Positions 13,053-64,000 of a stretch of 64,000 bases of DNA are shown here, piece by piece. The position numbers were made by a program, and so were the translations under genes. The notes under the pieces were generated by a model. The model saw only the letters and a program-made list of their open reading frames with translations, was not told the origin of the DNA and searched no databases. Source of the DNA: Candidatus Woesearchaeota archaeon (GTDB lineage: Archaea; Nanobdellota; Nanobdellia; Woesearchaeales; JABGUJ01); the NCBI GenBank assembly GCA_018646625.1, contig JABGUJ010000002.1:100843-164842 (forward strand). Reading direction: 5' to 3'. How positions within the stretch are numbered: the first letter of the stretch is position 1; the number at the start of each line of letters is the position of its first letter.

Positions 13053-16000
13053 TCATTGTACCCATAATTTTATCCATATATTCTGAACCTTCCATAGGTG
13101 TAGATAGTTCACCGTAATCATACATAAGCAATGCAGCATATTTCGCATATCCGTCATAAGATGGAACAGTGATCCACTCAGTTAAAGCAGATCCTTTCAT
13201 ATTCTTCAACGCAGGCAATTCCATTATTTTCTGAGTAATCCACTGTAACACTCTAGAAGTTAGATAAGAAGGAGGGAAAAGAAGTTTTAAGGCAGCCGCG
13301 AGTATTGTTTGAATAATTAACCACACAGATGGCAAACCAATCTCAACAATCGCACCATGATAATACAAACACTCCCTTATAGATCTCATTTCTGTACAAA
13401 CATTAGCTGGAAGAGTTCCATATCGTCCAATGTCTTGAAGGCATTTGTATTCTTTACAAAGAATTTGTTTTCGTTTTCTTTCTGCAGCCAACTGACCAGG
13501 GTAACAGAAACAACCTTCCGCCACTTCCCGACTTTTGTACGGATTCATCTCAAGATTATCATCTAGAGATAAGCCTCCTGCAACCATTCCGGCCTGAGCC
13601 CCCGCCATACCTGCAGCTGCCACAGTTCCAGTAGCCGCACCAGCAGCCACACCGGCACCACCGGTCAAAGCAGCAGTTCCTAACATAGCATTGAATCCAG
13701 GTTCAATATTTGTACCTGCATAAGCATCTGATGTTTCAATCGCACCTTGAATTGCAGACGCAATCCCGTTCGAAATAAGACTATCAACAAGAGTATTAGT
13801 ACTAGCAAGTGTATTTACTATTTCATTTGCAGCTTCTTCGCCGACCCAACCGCCGAGATCCATACTATCAGCTACAGATTCAGTCAAATCATAAGTATCA
13901 GCTCCGGCCATTTGTAAACCCGCAGTTAAACTAGCCATTATACCCATTGCTTTAAAGAAACCTTCAGGTTTTGAAGCACCACTACCGTCTCCAATTGAAC
14001 ATAAATGGCAAGTATTTATCAAGCAAGTTGCCCTTGCCAACCAACCAGTAATGTGATACAACTCTTCTTGTTCCGTAGGTAAGTAATTCCAAAGATAGGA
14101 TGAAACTTTTAGTGCTGAAGTAGATACTTCGGTAAATATATCTAAAAGCCCACTCAATGCCGTACCAATAAAAGCACACTGAGATGTTTTAGGACATGCT
14201 TTTATTATTGGACTAAATATTATGAATGCAACAGTTGTTAATATTGTTACAATAGTAGTCATAAGAATTGCATATTGAAGATATTCGCAAGCATATCTTA
14301 TATATTCAGCCCAAATAATTATTTGATCAATCTTCTCATCAACGCCACGTAAATCTGATTTTACTCCATCAACAAGTTCACCAAACGCCTCATCAAAATA
14401 TCCAATAGGTAAATTAGCGAGCGGTGCAGTAAAGTTGACAGTTTCAAGCTCAATCTTTTCATAAAATACTAATCCATCACGAACAACAAAGCCAATGTTA
14501 CAACTTAGTTTTGGTTTTACAGGATTAAAACAACTAGAAGTATCCGTCTCAGAATCCTCACAAGGTGGTAGATCAGAACTATTGACTGCTTCAGCACCCA
14601 TTCCACCAAGCCTGAGCGATAGTATAGGCACATCTGCTTTCCCATTCAGAATCTGTGCTTCAGTTACTGGAAATTCACTATTAAAACAAGAAGTTGTACC
14701 TTTATGTAACTCAACATCCGTTAGAATACCTGAATGCATCAATGAGTGGATTTTTATATCAGTAGCTAAAACAGTTTCATATATTTTACAATTAGGATCC
14801 AAAGATATAGGCATTAACTCAACATAAAGAGGAAATGGCTTAACAGATGCAGCACGCCAATCTACAACACTTGGAGTAACACGGCCCTTATTCAAATATA
14901 CACAATTCGGCACACCAGTATTATTAATACCGCAAATAGTTACTACCTTACGAATTGAATCAAAATTTCCTGCAGCATCATAAGCAGTAAGTTCAATCTC
15001 GGCAGAAGGAACTGGAAATGAAACAATGTTAGACAGATTTACATTGCACTCATATAAGCCATCATAATGCTTATATGGGCGACAAACTCCAACAAATGGT
15101 TCATTAACATCAACAATTCTGTTATGCTCATCAATTGCTCCATTGATCTCGATCTTTGTTACAGGAGAAGTGTCTTCAACAAGAACTCTATAAGTTACAA
15201 CATCATTCGATGTAGGACAATCTCTAAATGAATTAATAGTATAATTGGTTCTTTTAATTACCGGAGGTTCGTTATCAAAAGTGACTCTAAATTGCTGGTT
15301 GCTTATTCTATTCTGCGCATCATCAAAAGAACTATGTAGTCTAATTGTAACCACATCACTTGAAACAATATCAGGGCGATTAACCCAGATTGGTTCCCAA
15401 ATACAACTCCAAGTTGTTGATCCATTTGTTGTTTTACAGCTGTTTGCTTTTGTTTTCTGATGCCCTACACGAATAGAAGACATGTCAAGATAAACATCAC
15501 CATTATTCAATCCAGCACCACTCTCTTCAAGAATTAATTCAAACTTATTTTCTTTACCACCAACAAAGTTTTGAACATATCCGCCTTCAATTACAGGAGA
15601 ATTAGAAAGAAACTTCTTGACAATTGGCTTACTAGAATCCGCTTGAAAATTAACTTCATGAGTTTTGGTTACATAATTACCAGCACCATCACCCACCTTT
15701 ATTTTTGCAATCCTGGTAGAAGACGTTGATACAATCATCGGAAACTGCCAGATACAAGTAGCAGTATTATCACCAGAGAGAGAACAACTTTGCGGTTCTA
15801 AAGATGCAAATCGAGCATGATCACTTGGTGGTAAACCATCTTGAATAAATGAAACAACATCAATGACAGAATCACCTAAATTCACATTAGAAATACTAAG
15901 ATCCGAATAACTAACAGTGAGTTTAGCATTATAAGAATTTCCAGGATTCACAAATAGTTCTTCACCCAACACACCAGCAGTTTCAAAAAGTATATCTTTT

Positions 16001-16719
16001 ATCACAGGTTCTAAGTTATCAAGAGTGACAGTTAATGATGAAGAATCCACATAATTATCTAGCTTGTCAGATACACTAAGAATCGCATCGCCTATAAGTT
16101 CACCAGGAAATGATTTCATATCAAAATATCCAGTAGTAGTACAAGAAGTTTGAGATTTAATTGTAGGGGTTGCAGACACAAATAAATCCCCATAAAATAA
16201 TGATATCTGATTTATTCCCGAACAATATCCATTAACTCTCGAAGTATCTGATACTCTAAAATTCAATCGTTTAGCAGACTCATCCCATGAAAAATCTTCA
16301 ACAAGTGGTGAAACGTCATCAATAGTAATCGAAGCAGAAGCCTGAGCAACTACAGAATAATCCTCATTTTTGTATATTACTTCAAGATTACCTGAAGGAA
16401 TCTTAAATTCTATTTCGCACTTATAACGATCACTTCCAAAAGGATTACAAGAATCGGCAGGATAGCCATTAAAGAGAACTCTGTTTTCATCTAAAGACTG
16501 CTCATTTGTCTTCACTAATGCAGCAACAGAAACTTCATCAGTTGGTTTAGCATAACCATTAACGCCATTCTCGCCAGAAATATGCACAATTTCAACAGCA
16601 TAATCCGCAGGAGGAGAAACAGGTTGAGCAAATGAACGAGCAGAAGCGAACGATAGAGATATCACAAGAAAACACATGAATATAGCTAAGTTTTGCTTGT
16701 ACACCCCTTTTAAGTACAT
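13018..16719 (-). CDS. Giant cell-surface protein (1233 aa): signal peptide, beta-rich ectodomain, C-terminal membrane segments and a Gly/Ala-rich stretch
   Basis: Signal peptide FLVISLSFASARSFAQP. Long Thr/Ser/Asn/Val-rich region typical of Ig-like beta domains. C-terminal hydrophobic helices and the GGAGVAAGAATGTVAAAGMAGAQAGMVAGG tract. Confidence 0.55.
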   Translation of the reverse strand: MYLKGVYKQNLAIFMCFLVISLSFASARSFAQPVSPPADYAVEIVHISGENGVNGYAKPTDEVSVAALVKTNEQSLDENRVLFNGYPADSCNPFGSDRYKCEIEFKIPSGNLEVIYKNEDYSVVAQASASITIDDVSPLVEDFSWDESAKRLNFRVSDTSRVNGYCSGINQISLFYGDLFVSATPTIKSQTSCTTTGYFDMKSFPGELIGDAILSVSDKLDNYVDSSSLTVTLDNLEPVIKDILFETAGVLGEELFVNPGNSYNAKLTVSYSDLSISNVNLGDSVIDVVSFIQDGLPPSDHARFASLEPQSCSLSGDNTATCIWQFPMIVSTSSTRIAKIKVGDGAGNYVTKTHEVNFQADSSKPIVKKFLSNSPVIEGGYVQNFVGGKENKFELILEESGAGLNNGDVYLDMSSIRVGHQKTKANSCKTTNGSTTWSCIWEPIWVNRPDIVSSDVVTIRLHSSFDDAQNRISNQQFRVTFDNEPPVIKRTNYTINSFRDCPTSNDVVTYRVLVEDTSPVTKIEINGAIDEHNRIVDVNEPFVGVCRPYKHYDGLYECNVNLSNIVSFPVPSAEIELTAYDAAGNFDSIRKVVTICGINNTGVPNCVYLNKGRVTPSVVDWRAASVKPFPLYVELMPISLDPNCKIYETVLATDIKIHSLMHSGILTDVELHKGTTSCFNSEFPVTEAQILNGKADVPILSLRLGGMGAEAVNSSDLPPCEDSETDTSSCFNPVKPKLSCNIGFVVRDGLVFYEKIELETVNFTAPLANLPIGYFDEAFGELVDGVKSDLRGVDEKIDQIIIWAEYIRYACEYLQYAILMTTIVTILTTVAFIIFSPIIKACPKTSQCAFIGTALSGLLDIFTEVSTSALKVSSYLWNYLPTEQEELYHITGWLARATCLINTCHLCSIGDGSGASKPEGFFKAMGIMASLTAGLQMAGADTYDLTESVADSMDLGGWVGEEAANEIVNTLASTNTLVDSLISNGIASAIQGAIETSDAYAGTNIEPGFNAMLGTAALTGGAGVAAGAATGTVAAAGMAGAQAGMVAGGLSLDDNLEMNPYKSREVAEGCFCYPGQLAAERKRKQILCKEYKCLQDIGRYGTLPANVCTEMRSIRECLYYHGAIVEIGLPSVWLIIQTILAAALKLLFPPSYLTSRVLQWITQKIMELPALKNMKGSALTEWITVPSYDGYAKYAALLMYDYGELSTPMEGSEYMDKIMGTMSENCNGVEYDD

Positions 16720-28429: not shown

Positions 28430-28520
28430 AGGCCGGTAGCTCAGCCTGGAGTTTAATTACGGGCAATAGAGCACTCGACTTTTAATCGAGTGGTCGCGGG
28501 TTCGAATCCCGTCCGGCCTA
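28430..28520 (+). tRNA. tRNA-Lys(TTT) with a ~17 nt insertion (non-canonical intron) in the D-loop
   Basis: Acceptor aggccgg/ccggcct, D stem gctc/gagc, D-loop agcctgg[agtttaattacgggcaa]ta, anticodon stem ctcga/tcgag with loop ctTTTaa, T arm gcggg-ttcgaat-cccgt. Confidence 0.6.
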
Positions 28521-49364: not shown

Positions 49365-50531
49365 CTAATTTCCTACAGATTGCTTAAGCACATCCACTTT
49401 GTCAGTCGCTTCCCAAGTAAAGTCAGGATCGTCTCTTCCAAAGTGACCAAATGCTGCAGTTTTTTTGTAGATCGGTCTTTTAAGTTTCAGATGAGAAATT
49501 ATATCCGCAGGTCTTAGTGGAAAATTATCTCTAACTAATTGTTCAATCTTTTCTTCAGGAATTTTATTAGTGCCAAAAGTATTAACTAAAATACTAACAG
49601 GTTCCGCAACACCAATACAATATGCAAGTTGTACTTCACATCTCTCTGCAATTTCTGCAGCAACAATGTTTTTTGCAATATATCTTGAAATGTATGCACC
49701 ACTTCTGTCAACTTTAGATGGATCTTTACCAGAAAAGCAGCCACCACCATGAGCACCATGTCCACCATATGTGTCTACAATAATTTTTCGCCCAGTAAGT
49801 CCAGCATCAGCAACAGGACCGCCTAAAACAAATTTACCAGTCCCATTAATGAACAATCTTGTTTCATCATCAAGATAATCTCCGCAAACAGGTTTGATAA
49901 CTTTTTCTTTTATCTCTGCTCGAAGTTGTTCAAGATCTGCATCTTCGTCATGCTGTGCAGCAATGACAACAGTATGTGCTCTGACAGGTTTACCATCTTC
50001 ATATTCAACAGTCACTTGACTTTTTGCGTCAGGTCGAAGCTTTTGTATCTCTTTAGTTCTTCGAACGTCATCATATTTAGCCATCAACTTGTGCGCCAAA
50101 TCAATTGGTAAAGGCATCAAGTTCTTTGTTTCATTTGTTGCATACCCGAACATTAAACCTTGGTCTCCTGCACCTTGTTCTTTAAAGTCCCCTTCACCCT
50201 CTGTAACTCCTTGACTAATATCAGGACTCTGCTCAGATAAAGCTACGAGCACTCCACAAGTATTACCATCAAATCCATAATGTGGATTATCAAAACCAAT
50301 TTCTTTTATTGTTTCTCTCGTTACATTTTGAATATCAACATAAGTAGATGTTGTTAATTCTCCACCTACAACTACAAATCCAGTTTTAGTAAAACACTCA
50401 ACCGCAACTCTAGCATCAGGATCTTCTTTAAACACGGCATCAAGAATTGCATCGCTGATCTTATCACACATTTTATCAGGATGTCCTGGACTTACACTTT
50501 CACTACTAAACAAATATTTTCCTTTTTTCAT
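49365..50531 (-). CDS. metK: S-adenosylmethionine synthetase, bacterial/eukaryotic type (MetK)
   Basis: Hallmark [17 protein letters not shown] and [19 protein letters not shown] motifs of the bacterial-type enzyme, not the archaeal-type fold. Confidence 0.9.
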
Positions 50532-53885: not shown

Positions 53886-54034
53886 ATTTATTTCATTCTA
53901 TGTTTAGTTCTTGCGATTTTTATTGGATAAGACTTATTAAAAATTAATTCTTGTTGTCTTTTATGAAATCTAAGCAATCTCTAGTTATTGGAAAACACAA
54001 ATATTTATATAATATAGCGAGTTATATACCTGCT

Positions 54035-54256
54035 ATGGCTACTACGACTATTCAAATTAGCAAGAATTTACTCGAAGAGTTAAAGTCTCGTAAAATGTAT
54101 GATAAAGAAAGTTATGAGGATATAATACGAGATTTACTGGAGGATTCTATGGAACTATCTAAGGAGACTCTCAATAATATAAAGAAATCCGAAGCAGATA
54201 TCAAAGCTGGAAAGATTAAGACTTTAGCAGAAGTTGAGGCAAGACTGAAAAGATGA
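54035..54256 (+). CDS. relB: Type II antitoxin (RelB/RHH-like)
   Basis: Small acidic protein directly upstream of RelE-like toxin, overlapping it by 4 nt. The start is at the internal Met MATTTIQISKNLLEELK. Confidence 0.5.
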   Translation: MATTTIQISKNLLEELKSRKMYDKESYEDIIRDLLEDSMELSKETLNNIKKSEADIKAGKIKTLAEVEARLKR

Positions 54257-54513: not shown

Positions 54514-54562
54514 ATTCTGTTTAAGATATATTTAAATAATACTTCTAAGACAATTGTGTTAT

Positions 54563-54655
54563 GGGCCTATAGCATAGCCTGGATAGTGCGTCCGGCTTCG
54601 GAAGACTTATGTCTGTAGATACCGGTTGACGGGGGTTCGAATCCTCCTAGGCTCA
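54563..54655 (+). tRNA. tRNA-Arg(TCG) with a 19 nt intron at the canonical 37/38 position
   Basis: Acceptor gggccta/taggctc, D stem gcat/gtgc, anticodon stem tccgg/ccggt with loop ctTCGg|[aagacttatgtctgtagat]|a, variable tgac, T arm ggggg-ttcgaat-cctcc. An Arg anticodon is the most parsimonious reading; Pro(CGG) is the alternative. Confidence 0.55.
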
Positions 54656-55507
54656 TCCAATTCTTTTAATTCTGTTGATAGAAGTTCTTATTCTAAAGAT
54701 GATGAAAATAAACAGAGTTTTGATACATACTTTTACTTCTCAGAGACCGAAGAATTCCTTGAATGGATTAAGTTGAAGGTAGGTTCTGAACATTTTATCC
54801 ACATGAAGTGTTATTTTATGAAACATCTTGCAGGTAAGAAGTTCAAAGGACCATTAGAGTTGTATAAGTATATTTCAGAACAGAAAGGCATCAATAATCT
54901 AGTCAAAGCAGCAAGAGGTTATTTGAACTATTGTGAAGCCACAGATAAACTTTCAGCTGAGACTATCGACAAATATAGAAAGATACTGAAACTTAAGAGA
55001 ACTAAGATAGACTATCATGTTCCAGATGATAAAGAGATCGTTAAGAATTATAATCTGATTAAAGGTAACAAAAACCTTGAGTTGGTTTATTTGGTCCTAG
55101 CTTGCTCAGGTCTTAGGTATATAGAAGTTCTTCGCTTTCTGAAGAACTATGATAAGACCAAGTTTGTTGATCACGGAACCTTTGTCTCGTATAATATATC
55201 CGAGATTCGTGGTTCGAAAAGTGTTAACAATCTCTACCTACCCCGGTTTGTTTATGATAAACTAAACCATGTAGACAATACTTATAATTCTCTTAGACAA
55301 AGATTCAAAGAGAAAGGATGTACATTTACTTTGAAATACTTACGTAAATGGAATTACAATTTCTTAATCTACAACGGAGTTCCTGAGTCTGTAGCAGATT
55401 TTATTCAAGGAAGATCAAGTAATTCAGTTAGTGCTAATCATTATTTAGCTAAGAGTCAGCAGGCTAATCATTGGTATGGGATGATTACTCAAAAATTAAT
55501 ATTATAG
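54626..55507 (+). mobile_element. int: Tyrosine recombinase/integrase abutting the tRNA-Arg 3' end (true start uncertain, probably 54660-54803)
   Basis: C-terminal catalytic region LACSGLRYIEVLRF (Arg) ... LRKWNYNFL ... GRSSNSVSANHYLA (R/H...Y nucleophile region). The reading frame runs into the tRNA 3' end, as in pNOB8-type tRNA-targeting archaeal integrases. Confidence 0.6.
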
Positions 55508-56059: not shown

Positions 56060-57025
56060 TTAGTAATCCCACTCATATTGAATAGTTCCAGTATTATCAG
56101 TATTATGGCCCCAATCATAATACTCATCAGGCAGATATTCAGCGTATTGGCATACTTCACTCGTATATTTACTTAGTTTTTCTTCAATCTCACTCGGCTT
56201 TAAAGTAGATAGTTTACCTCCACCCGAGTCATGAAAAATCTCACCTTTAGATTCCAGTTCTTTTTTAAGTTCCAAATATGATGTACAGCGTTTAGAGTTA
56301 TCTAGTGCTTTTAATCGACTATGTGTTTTTTGTGTTACTAAATCAAACTCTTTTAAGATTTGTCTATTTTTTATAAGGCTAATACGATCTAGAATAAATC
56401 TCATTTCTTGAGGTGAATCTTTTAATTCTTTCCAAATCTTAGAGAACTTGTCTTGTAATTTATGTATATCTTTTATAATCAAGAGAGTTGTATGCCATAT
56501 TTCGTCTCTGTAAAGCCGACATTTAATTCCTTTTACAGAATTCAAATGTGTTTCAATCTCTCTTTTAAGATCAATTAGCGATTGCGGTGGCCTTACGGCA
56601 AATGCCAAAACTCTACCTCCTGTCTGCGTAGGAAAAGTAATATATTTTCCACTACCAATTAAATTTCCAGGTTCATGAAACAAAGGTGCGTTCTTAAAAA
56701 TCACTTTTTCAAGTTCTTTAATGAGCTTTCGTTCATTAGAAGCAATCATAGGTCCTGCAATGGTTATGTGAGGAACGTAATGATATTTGGGATGCCCCAA
56801 ACCATACGATCTCTGTAAATCATCATAACGATCCTTAATATATTTTCTTGGATATCCTGAATAACGATATTCTAGAATAATAGAGTCAGAGACTTCTTTT
56901 ATCTTATCTTCAGGTTCATCATCATAATCATCTTCTATTTCATCTTCAGGTTCATCATCAGACTCATCACTCGATAAGTCTTCATCTGAATCAAAATATG
57001 CCAAGAACCTTTCAAACAAACCCAT
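56060..57025 (-). CDS. 2H phosphoesterase superfamily protein (LigT/CPDase-like) with a poly-acidic N-terminal extension
   Basis: Two H-x-T/S-x motifs, VPHITIAGP and WHTTLLII, correctly spaced. Acidic N-terminal tract DSDEDLSSDESDDEPEDEIEDDYDDEPED. Confidence 0.6.
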   Translation of the reverse strand: MGLFERFLAYFDSDEDLSSDESDDEPEDEIEDDYDDEPEDKIKEVSDSIILEYRYSGYPRKYIKDRYDDLQRSYGLGHPKYHYVPHITIAGPMIASNERKLIKELEKVIFKNAPLFHEPGNLIGSGKYITFPTQTGGRVLAFAVRPPQSLIDLKREIETHLNSVKGIKCRLYRDEIWHTTLLIIKDIHKLQDKFSKIWKELKDSPQEMRFILDRISLIKNRQILKEFDLVTQKTHSRLKALDNSKRCTSYLELKKELESKGEIFHDSGGGKLSTLKPSEIEEKLSKYTSEVCQYAEYLPDEYYDWGHNTDNTGTIQYEWDY

Positions 57026-58326: not shown

Positions 58327-59610
58327 ATGATTAAGCAAGTATTAATTTTACTAGTATTCACATTTCTAATAGCAGGCTGCGGAGCTCCGGACCAAGAGAT
58401 TCTTGATGATTCCGTTGAGCCCACAGCCATGATAGCTGATGAGCCTATTCAAGACATACCAATTGAAGAGCCAGATCCTGTTGCTGAAGTAATAGAAAAA
58501 AGCTGCCCCGACAGTTGTGAAGATGATAATGAATGTACTGAAGATGTATGTTCCGATGAAACTAACTTTGAATGCGTTCACACTGAAATTGTTCCTTGTT
58601 GTGGTGATGGCGTTTGTGATGAAGAAGAAGAGTGCGAAGAAGATTGTAAAACTGAAATAGATACAGAACTAATTTTTGTTAATATATCTAATCTGTTTGG
58701 CGATATAGATTATTACGAGTTAGGTGGAGTATTCAAGAAGCTGTTCTTTGAAATTGAGAATACAAATGATGTGCCCGTAGTGATTGAACAAATAAATCTT
58801 AAAGTCCAGAATGTCAAAGGAGATCAATACGATAAAAAGCAAGAGATCTACTCACATACAATCACTGAAAAAATAAATGTTAACTCTCATGCACTTATTT
58901 ACTTTGAAAGTGAAATTGAGCCTATGGTTTTAGAGCTAAAGAGTCCAAAGAATGTATTGGAGAAATTTGACATAGAAATTGAGCTAGAGTTGCAAAGTGG
59001 AGATGTTATAAAGAAAACTGAAACATTGCTCCTTGATGATTTTTACTTCTATACTCACCTGTTCCATGGTGGAAGTGGTACCACATACTATAATGACCTT
59101 AGTTTTTGGCCACTAAGTCACGAGTATAGAGGATATTTACAAGGCAGTTCATTAGTTGCAAGTCAAATAAATCAAGACAACTGGATAACGGGTCTTGGCA
59201 TTCCCGTCTCTACAGGAAGCCTCATACTTGAGTTCAAAGAAGATTGGGTAGAAACTGAAAAGGAAGTTGACGGTAAAACTAGAACATACATCACTTCGTT
59301 CCCTTTAGAGTTCAGAACGAATAACTTAGAGTCATTACCTAGCTTTGATAATTTGGTGCTTGATCTGTTCTTATTTTCGCACGATAACAGATACTTTTAC
59401 AGTTTTTCAAGTGAAGATCTGGCTACGCTCGAGTTCAAAACAGAAGGCCTAACCTCCAGGGCCACTTTAAATTTAACTACTGATTTCAAGAAGACCTTTA
59501 CTACATATACAAATATTTTGGTATCATATGCTGAACTTAGAGAAAAGAATCATCTTGAGAAAGTGGCGACTGCATATCGAAGAGAGGTTATGAGAGATAC
59601 TGATGATTAA
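58327..59610 (+). CDS. Secreted lipoprotein with an acidic Cys-rich N-terminal module
   Basis: Lipobox-like LIAGCGA, then CPDSCEDDNECTEDVCSDETNFECVHTEIVPCCGDGVCDEEEECEEDCK. Confidence 0.45.
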   Translation: MIKQVLILLVFTFLIAGCGAPDQEILDDSVEPTAMIADEPIQDIPIEEPDPVAEVIEKSCPDSCEDDNECTEDVCSDETNFECVHTEIVPCCGDGVCDEEEECEEDCKTEIDTELIFVNISNLFGDIDYYELGGVFKKLFFEIENTNDVPVVIEQINLKVQNVKGDQYDKKQEIYSHTITEKINVNSHALIYFESEIEPMVLELKSPKNVLEKFDIEIELELQSGDVIKKTETLLLDDFYFYTHLFHGGSGTTYYNDLSFWPLSHEYRGYLQGSSLVASQINQDNWITGLGIPVSTGSLILEFKEDWVETEKEVDGKTRTYITSFPLEFRTNNLESLPSFDNLVLDLFLFSHDNRYFYSFSSEDLATLEFKTEGLTSRATLNLTTDFKKTFTTYTNILVSYAELREKNHLEKVATAYRREVMRDTDD

Positions 59611-59637
59611 TTCCAATATTTGGCAGGGGTTTAAAAG

Positions 59638-60789
59638 ATGAAAAAACTATACTTTTTATTGCTTATAACAATCATAGCCGCTATTGGCTGTTCTACCGTT
59701 GAAGAACCTAAACAATTATGCAATGCACCATATATTGAGTTTATGGCTGGTGAGTGTTGTTTGGATGCAGACAATAATTCTATTTGCGATTCGGATGAGA
59801 TATCTGAAGATTTAAGTACCTCTCAACCTATCGAGGTATTAGTGGAAGAAACAGATAATTTGTTAATTGAAGAATCACTATTAATAGTTCCTGCGGACGA
59901 CTTAATATCATTTATTGACTCTGTTATTAATATCGCCTTAGAGTTTAGGGAGAATGATTGGGGATTTAGACTAAACAAATTCGGTCTTCATAATTATGAT
60001 GTTCCAGTCGAGTCAAAGTATGATTTCTATGACAGTCCCTATGCAACTATATTCATCTTTGATCATAATATTACTGACAAAGCGATAACAAGTGCAGTTA
60101 ATGCCAGGTACGCTGATTTTAAATTGTTTATGGAATACAAATATAACACAAGTCAGTATAAAATTAAGTTTGGCCGTTATCCGGAATATACTACTTCAGA
60201 CTTTAAGATAGAATTTGTTTTCGAGACCGAAGACCTTCTCGAGGATAACAACTTATTTACGTTCAAGAGAGGCGCTATAGTTACCAATGTAGTTCAAGGA
60301 GACCAGTTTGATGGAGATGACTTTTATGGCGCTTGGGGACTTACAAGATTTTATGTTCCATGCGGAGCAAATGCATTTGTTGAAATATATCCTAGTGCTT
60401 ATGCAGATTCGGGTGAATGGGACTGGTCGATGGATGAACTAAAAGAAGCATTAGAAAATGATGATGTTAATAACAGAGATGTTGCTTTGCAAATATCAAA
60501 TTACTGTTCACAGGTAGATCTAGTTGAATATAACTCGAAAAGGGCGACGGTAAAAGACTCCCCCACTTTGGAAATTCTCAAGGGGATAACGTCAGTTAGT
60601 TGCGAAGGAAGACAACTAACATTTGTATGCGATAAGAAATCTATGAAATGTTATGGCGGTGGTTGTACAAATACTTTCAAGAAATGGCGTGATGAAGAGA
60701 AAGAATGTTTCGATAATGAAGATTATGCCCTCTTCAAACATTATCGCGTAACCAAAGGTTGTCAAGATCTTCCCAATTGGTTAGGTTAA
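59638..60789 (+). CDS. Secreted lipoprotein (hypothetical)
   Basis: Lipobox-like AAIGCST; Cys-containing N-terminal region. Confidence 0.4.
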   Translation: MKKLYFLLLITIIAAIGCSTVEEPKQLCNAPYIEFMAGECCLDADNNSICDSDEISEDLSTSQPIEVLVEETDNLLIEESLLIVPADDLISFIDSVINIALEFRENDWGFRLNKFGLHNYDVPVESKYDFYDSPYATIFIFDHNITDKAITSAVNARYADFKLFMEYKYNTSQYKIKFGRYPEYTTSDFKIEFVFETEDLLEDNNLFTFKRGAIVTNVVQGDQFDGDDFYGAWGLTRFYVPCGANAFVEIYPSAYADSGEWDWSMDELKEALENDDVNNRDVALQISNYCSQVDLVEYNSKRATVKDSPTLEILKGITSVSCEGRQLTFVCDKKSMKCYGGGCTNTFKKWRDEEKECFDNEDYALFKHYRVTKGCQDLPNWLG

Positions 60790-60794
60790 CGAAA

Positions 60795-61415
60795 ATGGTA
60801 ACGAAGAAACCAACTACTAAACATATTACTCGCTCTGCAACAGTTGTTACAGCCATCTTCATAGTAATTCTGGCAGTTCTTACTGTTCTAATTTTCAAAA
60901 CATACACATTAACTTCAGAGTGCGGTGAACAGACTGAACTGCAGGCCCAGATTGAAGAGATGAATGAAGCAAATGAGAAATTGAATACGCGGGTTATCAA
61001 GCTTGAGAAAGAGATTACAGATGCTGTTAAAGATGAATATGATCTTAGACAAGAGAAAGAAAGTCTAGAATCAACTAAAATATCTTTGGAAAAGCAGTTA
61101 AGAAATACCCGAGAAGAATTGACAAGAGCTATGAAGACACTACAAGATATATATTCACAAAGCGATGCTGAGTTCAGCGCATATGTACGACAATATTCTG
61201 GAAATTTGGTAGTCATAAGTAAAAGTGCTCCTGATGTTCATGAGTGCGTATTCACATTGAATGGAAACCGTAAGATGGGTGGAATCTACGATCTTGAAAT
61301 GGGGCAAGAAGTTGAGTTTGAAAAAGGTAAGAATTTCCCTGACGATATCAATGTAATGAGAGTAGATATTGCTTGCGTAGAAGGAGCTTACTCTTTGACT
61401 TTCGATCTAAAATAA
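60795..61415 (+). CDS. N-terminally anchored coiled-coil membrane protein
   Basis: TM helix VVTAIFIVILAVLTVLIF, then a heptad-rich segment (QAQIEEMNEANEKLNTRVIKLEKEI...). The start is placed at the ATG just after the upstream stop. Confidence 0.4.
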   Translation: MVTKKPTTKHITRSATVVTAIFIVILAVLTVLIFKTYTLTSECGEQTELQAQIEEMNEANEKLNTRVIKLEKEITDAVKDEYDLRQEKESLESTKISLEKQLRNTREELTRAMKTLQDIYSQSDAEFSAYVRQYSGNLVVISKSAPDVHECVFTLNGNRKMGGIYDLEMGQEVEFEKGKNFPDDINVMRVDIACVEGAYSLTFDLK

Positions 61416-61416
61416 A

Positions 61417-62700
61417 ATGACATCATACCTTATTGAATTCAGATTTCAGTCAGTACGGACAAAGCAATACTTAAAGCGAATGGTCTATGAAGTTAATAAA
61501 CGATTCAATGTTGGTAAAGGAAAACACGTACCACATATTTCTTTGGCAGGACCGTTGACTACAAATAACGAGAGAAAACTTATTTCTGATTTTGCAAAAG
61601 TATGTTCTAAAACTAAAGTTATGAAGTTTAAAATGCAAGGATTTGGGACCTTCAGTAATAGTGATGGCAAGAATGTTGTTCATGTGAAGATCGGTGCCAA
61701 TGAACGTCTAAATGACTTCAGGGTTAATATCAGAGATGCCATAAAGACATACTGCACTCTAAAATCTCATGATGAAAAAGACCATAAGGATCATTTCGGG
61801 TATCATAGCACAATTGCAATGAAGTTGAGCGATCATAAATTTCAGCAGATTAAAAGATATATCAATAGCAAACCAAGACCTGACTATTCACAAATTGTTA
61901 TGCGTATGACTCTCATCAAAGGTGGAAAGATTCTGAGAGAGTACGACTTTATGCAAAGAAGACTGCTAACACGAGGTCAAGCTTTGCACAGGAATGAACT
62001 TAGAAAGAGTAAAGAGTTGCTTAGAAGGTTTATGGAGGGCACTTATAATCCTAACAAGGGATTATCTGGAGAATCTAAAACAAAAGTTGAACCCGCAAAA
62101 GTGACAGATTGGGTAGAATGTCCCACCACATCCGATAATTTAACCCAGTGTGATTCTGTACCAAAGACTGGTTTGATCAAACGCTTCACTAATTTATTCT
62201 CAGGTCCCAAAACATATCTTACTTCAGACTTACATCTAGATCACGCAAATATAATCAGATACTGTAATCGCCCTTTTAAGGATAAACGTGAAATGAACAA
62301 AGTTCTAGTAAAGAATTGGAATAATACCATCAGACCTAAAGATAAAGTATACTTTCTAGGAGATTTAGCTTATGGTAGAGGCAGTCATAAAACAGATTGG
62401 TGGTTAAAAAAACTAAACGGAGATATAACGTTTATTGATGGAAATCACGATAATCTTAAGAGAACTCGCGTGCATAAGAAGCTGATAATTCAATACAAGA
62501 GTAAGCAGTTTATGTTGGTACACAATCCTAGAGATATTCCCTCTGACTGGAAAGGGTGGGTGATCTGTGGACACCATCATAACAATCACCCTAATACATT
62601 CCCGTTAGTGAATATGAAAGATAAGATAATCAATGTTTCAACTGAGTTAACTGACTATAAACCAATACTATTTGATGAAATACTAGAGATGATGGAATAA
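61417..62700 (+). CDS. Fusion protein: N-terminal 2H phosphoesterase domain + C-terminal calcineurin-like metallophosphoesterase domain
   Basis: 2H motifs VPHISLAGP and YHSTIAM, paralogous to 56060-57025. Metallophosphoesterase motifs in order: SDLHLDH, GDLAYG, GNHD, LVHNP, GHHH. Confidence 0.6.
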   Translation: MTSYLIEFRFQSVRTKQYLKRMVYEVNKRFNVGKGKHVPHISLAGPLTTNNERKLISDFAKVCSKTKVMKFKMQGFGTFSNSDGKNVVHVKIGANERLNDFRVNIRDAIKTYCTLKSHDEKDHKDHFGYHSTIAMKLSDHKFQQIKRYINSKPRPDYSQIVMRMTLIKGGKILREYDFMQRRLLTRGQALHRNELRKSKELLRRFMEGTYNPNKGLSGESKTKVEPAKVTDWVECPTTSDNLTQCDSVPKTGLIKRFTNLFSGPKTYLTSDLHLDHANIIRYCNRPFKDKREMNKVLVKNWNNTIRPKDKVYFLGDLAYGRGSHKTDWWLKKLNGDITFIDGNHDNLKRTRVHKKLIIQYKSKQFMLVHNPRDIPSDWKGWVICGHHHNNHPNTFPLVNMKDKIINVSTELTDYKPILFDEILEMME

Positions 62701-64000
62701 TGGCGAAAGTTGTAATTCAAACAGGAGGATCGATGGAGTTTCATCCCGTAGATAGTAGTGAACTGGAAGATACTGCATCTACCCTTGCATTCAAAGAGGC
62801 ATTGAGAAAAGAGAGAGAGAGAACTAAACGATTAAGAAAGAGAAGACGAACCCTGTTTACTTCGTTTATAGTTGTAATTGTCGCAGTCATTCTGTTATTG
62901 AATTATTATGGATTAGAAGATAATGAAGATGTTTCTGAAGTTGCGGTTGTTTTGGATAGTCCTGTTATGAATGAAGAAAATGATAATGTTGTGCTGCAGA
63001 ATGAAATGAGAGCAAATCCGCAATCTGAATTTGTGCCTGAAGAGATTAGTTACAAAGAGCAATTTGTGTATCCTGAAGCCTATCACAATAAGTTGGTTGA
63101 GCTAAAAGGTTATGCGACTACAAGATCGGCTACGAGAGTGGGCAAAACATATGTTGATACCTATATTCTAGATGATTTTGGTCGAGAATTAAGATTAGTA
63201 GGGGCAGAAGGTAATGAGATTGTTAATGATCAGTTATATTTAGCTAAAGGCACATTCAAGAATTGGAATACAGGTTTAGGCATAGATGTGAAAACAATTA
63301 AGACAGCTGAGCGTGAACAAATTGAGAAAGTAAAAGAGTTAGAGAATATTATTCCCGAGCTGGATCCCGAGACATATGAGAATACTAGCGAGACTTGGAG
63401 TGCAATCTATTGGTTACGGCAGAAAGCATGTTCAATAACTGACTTAATAACTACCAAATACAATGATATCAAAGAAGTTGCTGCGCAGAAAGTAGAAGAC
63501 GCAAAAGCTAAAGCTGAGCTTGAACTTGAGAAAGCTGAAGCTAAAGCCGAGTGGGAAGAAAAGAAGCGTAAAGAGAAAGAAGTGAAGATCAATGAAGAGC
63601 TAACAAGACGTCAGAGTACTTCTCAAGATAGTAGTGATGGATCAGGAATGAATACAAATCTGATTGAAGCCGAAATCCTAAGATTGGTCAATGAAGAACG
63701 AAGTAGGAATAAGGTATTCTCCTTGAGGGCATCTTCTCATCTAGATGATTTCTCAAAACGTTGGTCAAACAAAATGCTTACAGGAAATTTCTTAGAGCAC
63801 AGCAATTTAGGATTCCCTTATAGTTCCCAAGCGGCAGAGAATATTGCTTATACACCAATCCACTATTCAGTTATTGGTTGTGGTTCGACCTATGGTGAAG
63901 AAAACATGGCTGATTGCTTTGTTAGCGGCTGGATCGAAAGCTCGGGTCATCACACAAATATGATAAATTCGCGTTACTCCAGTACAGGCATTGGTGTTGC
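62700..64000 (+). CDS. Membrane-anchored CAP/SCP/PR-1-domain protein, 3' end truncated by the window
   Basis: My translation from the ATG at 62700 gives an N-terminal TM (LFTSFIVVIVAVILLLNYY) and a coiled-coil KAKAELELEKAEAKAEWEEKKRKEKE. The C-terminal region ...LRASSHLDDFSKRWSNKML...AENIAYT...GHHTNMINSRYSSTGIGV matches CAP-domain motifs. No stop codon falls before position 64000. Confidence 0.45.
   Translation, partial: MAKVVIQTGGSMEFHPVDSSELEDTASTLAFKEALRKERERTKRLRKRRRTLFTSFIVVIVAVILLLNYYGLEDNEDVSEVAVVLDSPVMNEENDNVVLQNEMRANPQSEFVPEEISYKEQFVYPEAYHNKLVELKGYATTRSATRVGKTYVDTYILDDFGRELRLVGAEGNEIVNDQLYLAKGTFKNWNTGLGIDVKTIKTAEREQIEKVKELENIIPELDPETYENTSETWSAIYWLRQKACSITDLITTKYNDIKEVAAQKVEDAKAKAELELEKAEAKAEWEEKKRKEKEVKINEELTRRQSTSQDSSDGSGMNTNLIEAEILRLVNEERSRNKVFSLRASSHLDDFSKRWSNKMLTGNFLEHSNLGFPYSSQAAENIAYTPIHYSVIGCGSTYGEENMADCFVSGWIESSGHHTNMINSRYSSTGIGV

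What the first reader, a model, noticed from the sequence alone, without database searches (positions are those of the whole stretch)
61417..62700. 2H phosphoesterase fused to a calcineurin-like metallophosphoesterase
The N-terminal half carries the two H-x-T/S-x motifs of the 2H (LigT/CPDase) fold. The C-terminal half carries the ordered D-x-H...GD...GNHD...GHHH metal-binding motifs of the calcineurin-like phosphoesterase superfamily. Together the domains could process 2',3'-cyclic phosphate ends (CPDase then phosphatase), or destroy cyclic or 2'-5'-linked nucleotide signals. A free-standing paralog (56060-57025) with a poly-Asp/Glu N-terminal tail is encoded nearby.
Basis: partly seen in the sequence, partly recalled or inferred. 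Interest (0 to 1): 0.65.

Follow-up and report, generated by a model that had tools for sequence, protein, structure and literature searches.

The report
Archaeal two-domain phosphoesterase on mobile element
The gene really encodes one protein joining a two-histidine (2H) phosphoesterase to a metal-dependent phosphoesterase; it belongs to a widespread but untested archaeal enzyme family that probably strips cyclic phosphate groups from RNA ends or nucleotides, and here it sits on a 15-kb integrated mobile element.

Summary
Confirmed. ORF 61417-62700 (+, 427 aa) has an N-terminal 2H phosphoesterase domain (Pfam PF13563, 52.8 bits against a cut-off of 27). A disordered linker joins it to a C-terminal binuclear metallophosphoesterase (MPP) domain (PHROG 547, E 6e-41; closest solved structure Aquifex aq_1665, function unknown). 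Every catalytic residue of both domains is kept in 119-120 of 120 full-length homologues. The paralogue at 56060-57025 is a real stand-alone 2H protein.

The fusion is not unique. At least 390 relatives were found and 293 species genomes encode one. The 80 best loci are almost all Archaea (DPANN, Methanosarcinales, Methanoregulaceae, Nitrosopumilaceae). They are auto-annotated as "2'-5' RNA ligase family", and I found no characterisation.

It is not a ThpR/LigT, PdeM or Acb1 orthologue.

Most likely mechanism (inferred, confidence 0.45): the 2H domain opens a 2',3'-cyclic phosphate and the MPP domain removes the resulting monoester.

New context:
- The gene lies inside a 15.4-kb element integrated into tRNA-Glu by an SSV-type split integrase.
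- Across several archaeal phyla the 2H(-MPP) gene recurrently sits beside a specific Nudix hydrolase.
- It also recurrently sits beside single-pass membrane proteins with an AN1 zinc finger and/or an extracellular CAP domain. This link is unexplained.

Moderately interesting: a new variant of a known kind.

The parts
61417..62700 (+). Complete ORF of the 2H-MPP fusion protein (427 aa plus TAA stop). An identical protein is on record as NCBI hypothetical protein HOB76_06165, Candidatus Woesearchaeota archaeon.
   Evidence: (P0001, 100% identity)
61417..62061 (+). 2H phosphoesterase domain, residues 1-215. It comprises the core fold and two C-terminal helices, and includes the family-specific invariant segment I172..E175-Y176-D177-F178..R186..A189.
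   Evidence: Pfam PF13563 52.8 bits; PDB 2d4g YjcG E 5.8e-8; AF2 pLDDT above 90 over most of the domain; Foldseek; invariant columns
61534..61542 (+). 2H motif 1: H40-I-S42 (HxS/T). His is present in 120/120 homologues; position 42 is T in 82 and S in 38.
   Evidence: aligns with 'PHLT' of YjcG
61804..61812 (+). 2H motif 2: H130-S-T132 (HxT). His is present in 120/120 homologues and Thr in 118/120.
   Evidence: aligns with 'PHVT' of YjcG
62062..62184 (+). Interdomain linker, residues 216-256. It is predicted disordered (pLDDT below 50 for residues 219-256). Its length ranges from 8 to 68 residues in the family and is 15 in most members.
62185..62697 (+). Binuclear metallophosphoesterase domain (aq_1665 / COG4186 / PHROG 547 type), residues 257-427.
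   Evidence: PHROG 547 E 5.7e-41; PDB 1xm7 E 6.9e-15; Foldseek 1xm7 E 8.4e-10; stand-alone homologues in 1755 phage records
62227..62235 (+). MPP motif I: D271-L-H273. Asp and His are each present in 120/120 homologues.
62359..62364 (+). MPP motif II: G315-D316. Asp is present in 120/120 homologues.
62440..62451 (+). MPP motif III: G342-N343-H344-D345. His is present in 119/120 homologues. Asn343 varies in the family (N 67, Q 24, S 18, others 9).
62521..62523 (+). MPP motif IV: H369, present in 120/120 homologues.
62569..62580 (+). MPP motif V: G385-H386-H387-H388. H386 is present in 119/120 homologues and H388 in 120/120.
56060..57025 (-). Free-standing 2H paralogue (321 aa). Its HxT motifs are at H86 (56762-56770) and H178 (56486-56494), and it keeps the 'ILKEFD' segment. 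The acidic N-terminal tail (residues 12-40, 56906-56992) is partly encoded by a 36-nt tandem duplication.
   Evidence: (repeat D3)
54616..54656 (+). attL: a 41-nt perfect direct repeat formed by the 3' part of tRNA-Glu (tRNA at 54562-54659). The identical attR lies 15,414 nt downstream, outside the window at L001:18614-18654. The two repeats bound the integrated element that carries both 2H genes.
54626..55507 (+). C-terminal part of an SSV-type integrase (Pfam Phage_integr_3, E 1.3e-37). Joining the sequence upstream of attR to att and to the sequence downstream of attL restores one continuous 374-codon reading frame.
58327..61415 (+). Three tightly packed upstream genes on the same strand. 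They encode two Cys-rich proteins with lipoprotein-like signal sequences (427 and 383 aa) and a transmembrane coiled-coil protein (206/218 aa). The last one stops 1 nt before the fusion's ATG, so these genes probably form one operon with the fusion.
62701..64000 (+). Downstream gene whose ATG overlaps the fusion's stop (TAATG). It encodes a single-pass membrane protein with an extracellular CAP (PF00188) domain. It is 448 aa in full and runs off the window. The next gene (L001:12681-14345, outside the window) encodes a zincin-like/AN1-finger membrane protein.

Best explanation
The ORF encodes a cytosolic, bifunctional phosphoesterase made of two independently folding catalytic modules on a flexible tether.

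Shown:
- Both modules have intact, family-wide conserved active sites.
- Each module also exists as a stand-alone protein.

Inferred, step 1: the metal-independent 2H domain uses His40 and His130 as general acid and base to open a 2',3'-cyclic phosphodiester. The substrate would be an RNA 3' end or a 2',3'-cNMP. The product is a 2'- or 3'-phosphomonoester.

Inferred, step 2: the binuclear-metal MPP domain hydrolyses that monoester, or a residual diester. The net conversion is >p to a 2',3'-diol plus Pi.

I favour RNA ends over free nucleotides as the physiological substrate, but weakly.

The protein belongs to a conserved archaeal family with no characterised member that I could find. This copy and a stand-alone 2H paralogue are cargo of a 15.4-kb element integrated into tRNA-Glu of a Woesearchaeon.
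For: Domain identity and fold.

Both active sites appear to be under purifying selection. H40, H130, D271, H273, D316, H369 and H388 are present in 120/120 full-length homologues, and H344 and H386 in 119/120.

The modules are separable. Stand-alone 2H forms at 61-64% identity end exactly where the MPP domain would begin (L039 and L044). A stand-alone MPP at 54% identity exists in L089.

Chemistry precedents from the literature:
- The 2H enzyme ThpR converts RNA>p to RNA-2'p (PMC4201822).
- The MPP domain of Clostridium thermocellum Pnkp is a 2',3'-cyclic phosphodiesterase and monoesterase used in RNA end healing (PMC2190708).

Hints that the substrate is a polyanion or RNA:
- Both domains are strongly basic across the family. 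The median net charge is +12.6 for the 2H domain and +6.4 for the MPP domain.
- A specific Nudix subfamily lies adjacent on the same strand in 9 loci from three phyla. Its best matches, all below threshold, are the RNA pyrophosphohydrolases YtkD and RppH.
- A phage member of the same MPP family (hhalign probability 98.4% over the N-terminal 83 columns) lies beside RNA ligase 1, Sir2, a MazG-like pyrophosphohydrolase and a tRNA cluster in phage FV3. PMC9503650 describes that neighbourhood as RNA repair.
Against: There is no biochemical evidence for any member of either subfamily. YjcG is 'of indeterminate activity' (PMC4201822), and aq_1665 is deposited as a protein of unknown function.

No recurrent RNA ligase or polynucleotide kinase family emerged from neighbour clustering. 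Contexts range from housekeeping to variable regions.

The small MPPs that are closest by fold or profile (Vps29; YfcE; MJ0936, from my own knowledge) are, where characterised, diesterases rather than monoesterases. That last point also rests on my own knowledge.

An MPP alone can carry out both steps (PMC2190708), so the need for a 2H partner is not self-evident.

This model does not predict the recurrent linkage to AN1/CAP membrane proteins.

The basic charge could partly reflect Lys-rich, AT-rich genomes.
Confidence: 0.45

Rival explanations
1. Degradation of a nucleotide signal. The two phosphodiesterase domains would jointly destroy a nucleotide second messenger or immune signal. Candidates are cyclic oligoadenylates from type III CRISPR, cyclic di- or trinucleotides, 2'-5'-linked oligonucleotides and c-di-AMP. 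The role would be either counter-defence cargo of the mobile element or a housekeeping signal-turnover enzyme acting at the membrane.
For: - This copy lies on an integrated element with a second 2H gene.
- Other copies lie near integrases (7 of 80 loci; L006) or between restriction-modification systems.
- The 2H fold includes the viral signal-degrading enzymes Acb1 and the poxvirus cGAMP PDE, which appear among the fold hits (PMC9117128).
- Fusion or adjacency to membrane proteins with extracellular domains resembles a receptor coupled to a phosphodiesterase.
Against: - Many copies sit in ordinary chromosomal contexts in Nitrosopumilaceae, Methanosarcina and others.
- There are no PADLOC defence matches in the neighbourhood.
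- Similarity to Acb1 is at fold level only (7% identity, E 1e-4).
- The 2H domain has no detectable phage homologue.
- No cyclase or CRISPR genes were seen next to it in the annotated contexts.
Confidence: 0.15
2. Processing of ADP-ribose-derived cyclic phosphates. [quoted passage not shown] The MPP domain (or the neighbouring Nudix where MPP is absent) would then cleave the pyrophosphate or the terminal phosphate.
For: - The Nudix gene is directly adjacent in 9 loci. In 5 of the 8 GTDB loci with a stand-alone 2H form (and in L099) it occupies the position directly downstream of the 2H gene, where the fusion has its MPP domain.
- Arabidopsis Appr>p CPDase is among the top fold hits (1jh6, E 8e-6).
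- PMC9503650 lists 2H, Nudix and calcineurin-like enzymes together as candidate processors of ADPr>p.
Against: - No Tpt1/KptA, sirtuin, macro or ART genes were seen nearby in the annotated contexts.
- Nudix also occurs upstream of full-length fusions (L027, L054, L082), so it is not simply a substitute for MPP.
- The Nudix subfamily's best (sub-threshold) matches are RNA pyrophosphohydrolases rather than ADP-ribose pyrophosphatases.
Confidence: 0.1
3. Two unrelated activities. The MPP domain would be a nuclease or diesterase acting on DNA or RNA backbones (as PdeM/MPE or Mre11 do). The 2H domain would act as a transesterase, ligase or RNase (as Usb1 or 2'-5' ligases do). The protein would then be a nucleic-acid processing nuclease rather than a sequential cyclic-phosphate remover.
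For: - The best NCBIfam match of the C-terminal half is PdeM, although far below threshold (37 against 150 bits).
- Usb1 is a strong fold hit for the N-terminal half (E 6e-6).
- In Herelleviridae phages the stand-alone MPP lies among helicase, SbcCD and primase genes.
- One paralogue-type 2H gene sits next to an ATP-dependent DNA ligase.
Against: - No ligase or Lhr partner occurs next to the fusion in the annotated contexts, and neighbour clustering of the 80 loci gave no such recurrent family.
- The PdeM score is a quarter of the cut-off.
- A flexible tether joining two sites of 119-120/120 conservation is more simply explained by coupled steps on one substrate.
Confidence: 0.15
4. Decaying or non-functional cargo gene on a mobile element.
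For: It lies on an integrated element, and its closest relatives have lost the MPP domain.
Against: - The ORF is intact.
- All catalytic residues are retained.
- The identical protein was recovered on 17 contigs from several samples.
- Its start and stop are tightly coupled to the flanking genes.
Confidence: 0.02

Closest known systems
Bacillus subtilis YjcG (PDB 2D4G), YjcG-like branch of the 2H phosphoesterase superfamily
   Same: It is the best solved-structure match for residues 1-~170 (profile E 5.8e-8; Foldseek E 4e-6, target TM-score 0.71). Both HxT motifs align. Like YjcG, it lacks the extended ThpR motifs.
   Different: About 19% identity. The NCBIfam YjcG-type model NF010223 scores 25.5 against a cut-off of 129. 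The archaeal family has an extra invariant 'ILREYDF...R..A' segment and C-terminal helices. YjcG is stand-alone and its activity is unknown (PMC4201822).
E. coli ThpR/LigT and Pyrococcus PH0099 (RNA 2',3'-cyclic phosphodiesterases)
   Same: Same fold and the same two catalytic histidines. These enzymes are the chemical precedent for step 1, RNA>p to RNA-2'p (PMC4201822).
   Different: The extended motifs HxTxxF and HxTxxR that define the subfamily are absent here (HISLAG and HSTIAM). TIGR02258 scores 24.7 against 65.7. ThpR has no phosphatase partner domain.
Aquifex aeolicus aq_1665 (PDB 1XM7) and the stand-alone phage 'phosphoesterases' (PHROG 547; a BFVD viral fold hit is labelled COG4186)
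   Same: Best match of the C-terminal domain (profile E 6.9e-15; Foldseek E 8.4e-10; PHROG E 5.7e-41). It shares all five MPP motifs and the DxHxxHxNI...RPF...MN...WN signature. Stand-alone homologues occur in 1755 phage records.
   Different: Those proteins are single-domain (about 165-200 aa) and uncharacterised. None of the matches examined carries a 2H domain, and the 2H half finds nothing in phages.
Clostridium thermocellum Pnkp (kinase - MPP phosphatase - ligase) and T4 Pnkp
   Same: These are multi-domain RNA end-healing enzymes. The CthPnkp MPP domain hydrolyses 2',3'-cyclic phosphates and phosphomonoesters (PMC2190708). This is the closest functional analogy for the proposed net reaction.
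   Different: The fusion has no kinase or ligase domain. The CthPnkp MPP belongs to the lambda-phosphatase branch. T4 Pnkp uses a HAD-type phosphatase (PMC3592404). Here the opening of the cyclic phosphate is assigned to a separate 2H domain.
Fungal/plant tRNA ligase Trl1 (ligase-kinase-2H CPDase) and periplasmic CpdB (MPP + 5'-nucleotidase C domain)
   Same: Both are bifunctional proteins that deal with 2',3'-cyclic phosphates. Trl1 uses a 2H CPDase module. CpdB converts 2',3'-cNMP to nucleoside in two steps. (This rests on my own knowledge of these families.)
   Different: The partner domains are different. Trl1 keeps the 2'-phosphate for Tpt1. CpdB is secreted and contains no 2H domain.
Phage Acb1 (anti-CBASS 2H nuclease) and poxvirus cGAMP phosphodiesterase
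   Same: They have the 2H fold and are carried by mobile or viral genomes (PMC9117128).
   Different: The similarity is at fold level only (7-13% identity, E 1e-4 to 1e-3). They have no MPP domain. Most copies of the archaeal family are chromosomal.

Membership tests
2H phosphoesterase superfamily | Two HxT/S motifs supplying the catalytic histidines | tested here: met
   H40-I-S42 and H130-S-T132. Both His are present in 120/120 homologues and align with the HLT and HVT motifs of YjcG.
2H phosphoesterase superfamily | Profile match above the curated threshold | tested here: met
   PF13563 scores 52.8 bits against a gathering score of 27, E 5.8e-14.
2H phosphoesterase superfamily | Bilobed alpha+beta 2H fold | tested here: met
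   The AF2 domain has pLDDT mostly above 90. Foldseek hits include YjcG, Usb1, CPDase, PH0099, AKAP18 and LigT at E 4e-6 to 1e-3.
2H phosphoesterase superfamily | Metal-independent phosphodiesterase or transesterase activity | not testable with these tools
   Needs an enzyme assay.
ThpR/LigT RNA 2',3'-cyclic phosphodiesterase (TIGR02258) | Extended motifs HxTxxF and HxTxxR (PMC4201822) and a score above the equivalog cut-off | tested here: not met
   The motifs here are HISLAG and HSTIAM. TIGR02258 scores 24.7 against 65.7 bits.
YjcG-type 2H protein (NF010223) | Score above the equivalog cut-off | tested here: not met
   25.5 against 129 bits. It is the closest structure but not an orthologue.
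Calcineurin-like binuclear metallophosphoesterase superfamily | Ordered motifs DxH / GD / GNH[DE] / H / GHxH | tested here: met
   D271-H273, G315-D316, G342-N-H-D345, H369 and G385-H-H-H388. They are conserved in 119-120/120 homologues, except Asn343.
Calcineurin-like binuclear metallophosphoesterase superfamily | Profile match above the curated Pfam threshold | tested here: inconclusive
   Metallophos_2 scores 22.7 against 27 bits for this sequence. However, PHROG 547 gives E 5.7e-41, the family profile hits 1xm7 at E 6.9e-15, and most of the listed homologues carry precomputed PF12850/PF00149 hits.
Calcineurin-like binuclear metallophosphoesterase superfamily | MPP beta-sandwich fold | tested here: met
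   Foldseek hits 1xm7 at E 8.4e-10 with target TM-score 0.68, followed by Vps29 structures. Phage metallophosphatases are hit in BFVD at E down to 6e-13.
PdeM / MPE ligase-associated endonuclease (TIGR04123) | Score above the cut-off, and a neighbourhood containing ATP-dependent ligase and Lhr helicase | tested here: not met
   37 against 150 bits. No ligase or Lhr lies next to the fusion in the annotated contexts, and neighbour clustering of 80 further loci gave no such recurrent family.
Pnkp-type RNA end-healing enzymes | 5'-kinase domain (and a ligase/Hen1 partner) alongside the phosphatase | tested here: not met
   Only the two phosphoesterase domains are detected. A uridine-kinase-like gene is adjacent only to stand-alone 2H forms in four Woesearchaeota loci.
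Acb1-type anti-CBASS nucleases | Sequence-level membership and a phage context | tested here: not met
   Fold hit only (E 1.4e-4, 7% identity). The 2H half has no phage tblastn match, and PADLOC gives none.
SSV-type integrase integrated element (context) | att direct repeats in a tRNA gene, and an integrase gene split by integration | tested here: met
   41-nt perfect repeats 15,414 nt apart. Phage_integr_3 at E 1.3e-37. The joined att junction restores one 374-codon frame.

The most novel reading that the evidence does not exclude
The 2H-MPP enzyme is the catalytic arm of a previously undescribed, membrane-associated archaeal module. Its partners are single-pass proteins with a cytoplasmic AN1 zinc finger (sometimes with a zincin-like domain) and extracellular CAP or Cys-rich domains, often together with a dedicated Nudix hydrolase. 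The module would turn over a nucleotide-based signal or nucleotide-modified molecule at the membrane. Mobile elements such as the one in this window would carry it as host-interaction or counter-defence cargo.
Probability: 0.15. Interest if true: 0.75.

Novelty: new variant of a known kind. Interest (0 to 1): 0.5.

Why it matters
Archaea cut tRNA introns and many other RNAs in a way that leaves 2',3'-cyclic phosphate ends. Their main ligase, RtcB, needs those ends. An enzyme that converts >p to a diol would instead divert RNA toward 3'-OH-dependent ligases, tailing or decay, or toward nucleoside salvage. Salvage is especially relevant in DPANN archaea, which have reduced nucleotide biosynthesis. 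These statements rest on my own knowledge of the pathways.

No archaeal enzyme with this combination of domains has been characterised, as far as the searchable literature shows. Relatives of the family are encoded in at least 293 species genomes, including the genetically tractable genus Methanosarcina and the ecologically dominant Nitrosopumilaceae. One assay series would therefore annotate hundreds of genes.

The unexpected, statistically strong linkage to Nudix and to AN1/CAP membrane proteins hints at a larger uncharacterised system.

Tried and rejected
1. A third 2H paralogue in the element. A 41-nt 71% repeat linked the fusion to the ORF at L001:17933-18472. Its translation has no HxT motifs and does not resemble the 2H proteins, so I treated the repeat as a chance match.
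2. Single-sequence phmmer against the PDB found nothing. A family profile was needed.
3. PADLOC defence models gave no hit for the fusion, the paralogue or the neighbours tested, apart from generic TPR matches.
4. PHROGs on ten other genes of the element found no virion or replication hallmark, so I could not decide between provirus and integrative plasmid.
5. tblastn of the 2H half against 50,697 phage records gave no match.
6. A conserved RNA ligase, kinase or CRISPR partner was sought in 9 Pfam-annotated contexts and by clustering all neighbours in 80 loci. None was found.
7. Other fusion partners of the 2H subfamily (DnaJ, an acyltransferase-like membrane region) were not informative.
9. 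Mazumder et al. 2002 and Burroughs & Aravind 2016 are not in the held library. I therefore cannot exclude that the architecture is mentioned there.
10. Literature searches for the fusion, for COG4186, for YjcG function and for AN1+CAP in archaea returned nothing relevant.
Full report
OBSERVATION

The window holds an ATG-to-TAA ORF at exactly 61417-62700 on the + strand (427 aa).
- 2H motifs: H40-I-S42 and H130-S-T132.
- MPP motifs: D271-L-H273, G315-D316, G342-N-H-D345, H369 and G385-H-H-H388.

Two HxS/T motifs in 215 residues is not significant by itself, since shuffles give 1.0 on average. The case therefore rests on profiles and fold:
- Pfam 2_5_RNA_ligase2 scores 52.8 bits against a gathering score of 27 (E 5.8e-14, residues 34-168).
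- The C-terminal half matches PHROG 547 'phosphoesterase' at E 5.7e-41 (residues 255-426).
- Pfam Metallophos_2 falls just below threshold (22.7 against 27).

A profile of 36 full-length homologues hits two solved structures:
- Aquifex aq_1665 (1XM7, a metallophosphoesterase of unknown function) at E 6.9e-15.
- B. subtilis YjcG (2D4G, a 2H protein) at E 5.8e-8.

In these alignments the family's two histidine motifs align with YjcG's HLT and HVT. All five MPP motifs align with those of aq_1665.

An AlphaFold model built on that alignment has mean pLDDT 84.6. It has a disordered linker at residues 219-256 between two confidently folded domains, which I delimit as 1-215 and 257-427. Foldseek against the PDB returns the same two entries first. 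Usb1, plant CPDase, PH0099, AKAP18 and LigT follow for the N-terminal half, and Vps29 for the C-terminal half.

THE PARALOGUE

The ORF at 56060-57025 (- strand, 321 aa) is a genuine stand-alone 2H protein:
- Pfam LigT_PEase scores 26.0 against 23.3.
- It has 25% identity over 243 residues to the N-terminal half of the fusion, E 6e-17. The match includes the family-specific 'ILKEFD' segment.
- Its HxT motifs are at H86 and H178.
- Its acidic tail (residues 12-40) is partly encoded by a 36-nt tandem duplication (repeat D3).

It belongs to a small family of stand-alone proteins (19 hits).

A suspected third paralogue (L001:17933-18472) was rejected, because its translation has no HxT motif.

THE FAMILY

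The fusion is not a one-off. A search of the 5.8-billion-protein collection gave 390 hits. The best 120 are all near full-length, at 39-50% identity. They come from Woesearchaeota, Nanoarchaeota, other DPANN, Methanosarcina and Methanoregulaceae. Sources name them '2'-5' RNA ligase family protein' or 'calcineurin-like phosphoesterase family protein/2'-5' RNA ligase'. The identical protein is NCBI HOB76_06165 from a Candidatus Woesearchaeota archaeon.

Among GTDB species genomes, 293 encode a relative. The 80 best are almost all archaeal. They include Woese-, Nano-, Aenigm-, Iain-, Micr-, Had- and Hydrothermarchaeota, Methanosarcinales, Methanoregulaceae, Nitrosopumilaceae, Archaeoglobaceae and Thermoplasmatota. 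A few sit in bacterial bins that may be mis-binned.

In all 120 homologues H40, H130, D271, H273, D316, H369 and H388 are invariant. H344 and H386 are present in 119. Both active sites are thus maintained together. Only Asn343 of the GNH motif varies.

An additional invariant segment (I172, E175-Y176-D177-F178, R186, A189) marks this 2H subfamily.

The 2H subfamily itself is modest in size: 328 clusters at 50% identity with E<=0.001. Most of the listed representatives are 200-250 aa stand-alone proteins, and about twenty are fusion-length, by my reading of the listed lengths.

The closest relatives of the window's N-terminal half are stand-alone forms in Woesearchaeota (56-64% identity). The two examined, L039 and L044 (61-64%), end exactly at the short helix that precedes the MPP domain in the fusion. 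A stand-alone MPP at 54% identity exists in a Methanomicrobiales genome.

The MPP domain has stand-alone homologues of about 30-36% identity in 1755 phage records. The 2H domain has none.

WHAT IT IS NOT

- Not ThpR/LigT. That subfamily is defined by HxTxxF and HxTxxR (PMC4201822). Here the motifs are HISLAG and HSTIAM, and TIGR02258 scores 24.7 against 65.7.
- Not a YjcG orthologue (25.5 against 129 bits).
- Not PdeM (37 against 150 bits, and no ligase/Lhr neighbours).
- Not Acb1-like beyond fold (7% identity).
- Not matched by any PADLOC defence model.

GENOMIC SETTING

The window is archaeal chromosome. It carries split RpoB, RpoA', IleRS, MetRS and H+-PPase, and unusually long tRNA-Pro and tRNA-Glu genes (91 and 98 nt) that probably contain introns.

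The 3' 41 nt of tRNA-Glu (54616-54656) recur perfectly 15,414 nt downstream, beyond the window end, as seen on the longer contig L001. Directly after attL lies the C-terminal part of an SSV-type integrase (Phage_integr_3, E 1.3e-37). Joining the sequence upstream of attR to att and to the sequence downstream of attL restores one 374-codon frame. That is the signature of an integrase gene split by integration.

The fusion, the 2H paralogue and about 15 other genes are therefore cargo of a 15.4-kb integrated element. Most of the other genes are unassigned, and no viral hallmark was found.

Within the element the fusion sits in a tight same-strand gene string:
- Two Cys-rich lipoprotein-like genes.
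- A TM coiled-coil gene that stops 1 nt before the fusion's ATG.
- The fusion.
- A CAP-domain membrane protein whose ATG overlaps the fusion's stop.
- A zincin-like/AN1-finger membrane protein.
- A TPR protein.

Elsewhere the contexts are mixed. Some lie between type I restriction-modification systems or near integrases. Some lie in variable regions. Some lie among housekeeping genes such as ProRS, NMD3 and GatD.

RECURRENT NEIGHBOURS (NEW)

I clustered all ORFs within 4 kb of the gene in the 80 GTDB loci and then ran HMM searches. Two associations emerged that cross phyla.

1. A specific small Nudix subfamily.
- It lies immediately adjacent on the same strand in 9 loci: L027, L047, L049, L051, L054, L058, L082, L083 and L099.
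- These come from Woese-/Nanoarchaeota, Methanosarcinales and Nitrososphaerales/Thaumarchaeota.
- In 5 of the 8 GTDB stand-alone-2H loci, and in L099, it directly follows the 2H gene.
- Its best NCBIfam matches, all sub-threshold, are the RNA pyrophosphohydrolases YtkD and RppH.

2. Single-pass membrane proteins with an AN1 zinc finger and/or an extracellular CAP domain.
- The AN1 finger is cytoplasmic by predicted topology. Pfam zf-AN1 is above threshold in L042 and L038. It is sometimes preceded by a YgjP/SprT-like HExxH region.
- The extracellular part carries a CAP domain, Cys-rich repeats or other domains.
- Every one of the 11 ORFs matching an AN1-like pattern, among 5830 ORFs in about 1 Mb of loci, lies within 1.4 kb of the 2H gene. 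These represent 9 independent loci.
- Ten of the 14 CAP-HMM hits in the 80 loci lie within 1 kb.
- L038 combines AN1 and CAP in one protein.
- Three family members (P0063, P0086, P0103) carry a precomputed zf-AN1 hit. In the two I read, P0063 and P0103, the finger and a membrane anchor follow the MPP domain. P0150 joins MPP and 2H to a membrane protein.
- A paralogue-type 2H gene (P0283) also has CAP and Nudix genes within 3 kb.

I have no mechanistic explanation for the second link.

A uridine-kinase-like gene precedes the stand-alone 2H only in four Woesearchaeota loci. Tyrosine integrases lie within 3.3 kb in 7 of 80 loci.

MECHANISM

Shown: two intact, co-conserved catalytic centres of known chemistry on a flexible tether, each also viable alone.

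Inferred: a sequential reaction.
- The 2H domain opens a 2',3'-cyclic phosphodiester without metal. The precedent is ThpR, which converts RNA>p to RNA-2'p (PMC4201822).
- The binuclear MPP domain then removes the monoester. The precedent is the MPP domain of C. thermocellum Pnkp, a 2',3'-cyclic phosphodiesterase and monoesterase in RNA end healing (PMC2190708).

Weak pointers toward RNA as the substrate:
- Strongly basic domains across the family, with median net charges of +12.6 and +6.4.
- The RppH/YtkD-like Nudix neighbour.
- A phage member of the MPP family next to RNA ligase 1, Sir2 and MazG in phage FV3. PMC9503650 interprets that neighbourhood as RNA repair.

Against this model:
- No member of either subfamily has been assayed.
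- No ligase or kinase partner is conserved.
- The nearest small MPPs are diesterases.
- The membrane-protein link is not predicted.

I give this model 0.45. The rivals are degradation of a nucleotide signal (0.15), processing of ADP-ribose cyclic phosphate (0.10), two unrelated nuclease or transesterase activities (0.15), and a decaying gene (0.02).

NOVELTY AND VERDICT

The domains are known, and the architecture is already auto-annotated in public databases. I found no description or characterisation of it in the searchable literature.

As an end-processing enzyme, 2H+MPP would be a new combination alongside Pnkp, Trl1 and CpdB. I therefore rate it a new variant of a known kind. Interest is moderate at 0.5. 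What raises it above routine is the breadth of the family in Archaea, its presence on a cleanly delimited mobile element with a second 2H gene, and the unexplained Nudix and AN1/CAP associations.

Noticed in passing
window 54616-54656 (attL) to L001:18614-18654 (attR, about 6 kb beyond the window end): A 15.4-kb element is integrated into tRNA-Glu. It is bounded by perfect 41-nt direct repeats. Its SSV-type integrase gene is split by integration, and joining the ends restores one 374-codon frame with an N-terminal part that looks ribbon-helix-helix-like by eye. No virion hallmark genes were detected.
   Followed up: yes
window 62701-64000 and loci L019, L031, L038, L056, L057, L062, L067, L075, L078, L095: A CAP (PF00188) domain membrane protein lies next to the 2H-MPP gene in several archaeal phyla. 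Ten of 14 CAP hits in 80 loci are within 1 kb of it. In the 64-kb window the only CAP ORF is the one overlapping the fusion's stop codon.
   Followed up: partly
L001:12681-14345 (just beyond the window end); L013:6992-7999; L091:4776-5993; L032:7211-8101; L042:7280-8644; L038:7180-8820; L043:7698-9497; L057:7428-7784: Membrane proteins with an AN1 zinc finger, sometimes preceded by a YgjP/SprT-like HExxH region, always lie within 1.4 kb of the 2H gene (all 11 pattern matches among 5830 ORFs). Family members P0063 and P0103 carry the AN1 finger and a C-terminal membrane anchor fused to the MPP domain. The functional link is unexplained.
   Followed up: partly
L027:4745-5158, L047:1927-2322, L049:2601-2996, L051:6720-7112, L054:5389-5997, L058:806-1261, L082:5532-5894, L083:5649-6020, L099:3088-3483: A distinct small Nudix subfamily lies directly adjacent, on the same strand, to the 2H or 2H-MPP gene in three archaeal phyla. 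In most stand-alone-2H loci it directly follows the 2H gene, where the fusion has its MPP domain.
   Followed up: partly
L039:6001-6708, L044:6001-6705; also L047, L049, L051, L058, L083, L091: The closest relatives of the N-terminal half (45-64% identity across these loci, 56-64% in the Woesearchaeota ones) are stand-alone 2H proteins. The two read in full (L039, L044) stop right after the short helix that precedes the MPP domain in the fusion. This suggests recent domain loss, or that the helix belongs to the 2H module.
   Followed up: partly
L039:5242-5808, L047:645-1238, L049:1002-1652, L099:1778-2368: A uridine-kinase-like P-loop kinase (NCBIfam udk 82-87 bits, below the cut-off) lies directly upstream of the stand-alone 2H gene in four Woesearchaeota loci. 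A LemA-like gene is often nearby.
   Followed up: partly
window 28430-28520 and 54562-54659: tRNA-Pro (91 nt) and tRNA-Glu (98 nt) are longer than standard tRNAs. This is consistent with archaeal tRNA introns, whose excision produces 2',3'-cyclic phosphate ends.
   Followed up: no
window 53951-54256 and the ORF after it (L001:2547-3097): A putative antitoxin-like ORF (VAPB_antitox / DUF7557, sub-threshold) is followed by a ParE-toxin gene immediately upstream of the tRNA-Glu integration site.
   Followed up: no
window 56897-56992 (L001:5470-5541): A 36-nt tandem duplication (81% identity) encodes the repeated DDEPED acidic tail of the 2H paralogue.
   Followed up: no
L001:16784-17218 (inside the element, beyond the window end): The integrated element also carries a small ERCC4-type nuclease gene. 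The 179-aa ORF just before attR looks AbrB/SpoVT-like by eye.
   Followed up: no
window 49365-50531: The S-adenosylmethionine synthetase has all three bacterial/eukaryotic-type MetK domains (PF00438/02772/02773), rather than the archaeal-type enzyme, in an archaeal genome.
   Followed up: no
window 13018-16719, 9045-11564, 4574-6190 (all - strand): Three large ORFs (1233, 839 and 538 aa) have no Pfam match at E<=1e-5.
   Followed up: no
L097:5580-6552 (Escherichia phage FV3): The phage stand-alone MPP homologue sits next to a small ATPase, RNA ligase 1, Sir2, a MazG-like pyrophosphohydrolase, a DNA ligase and a tRNA cluster.
   Followed up: partly
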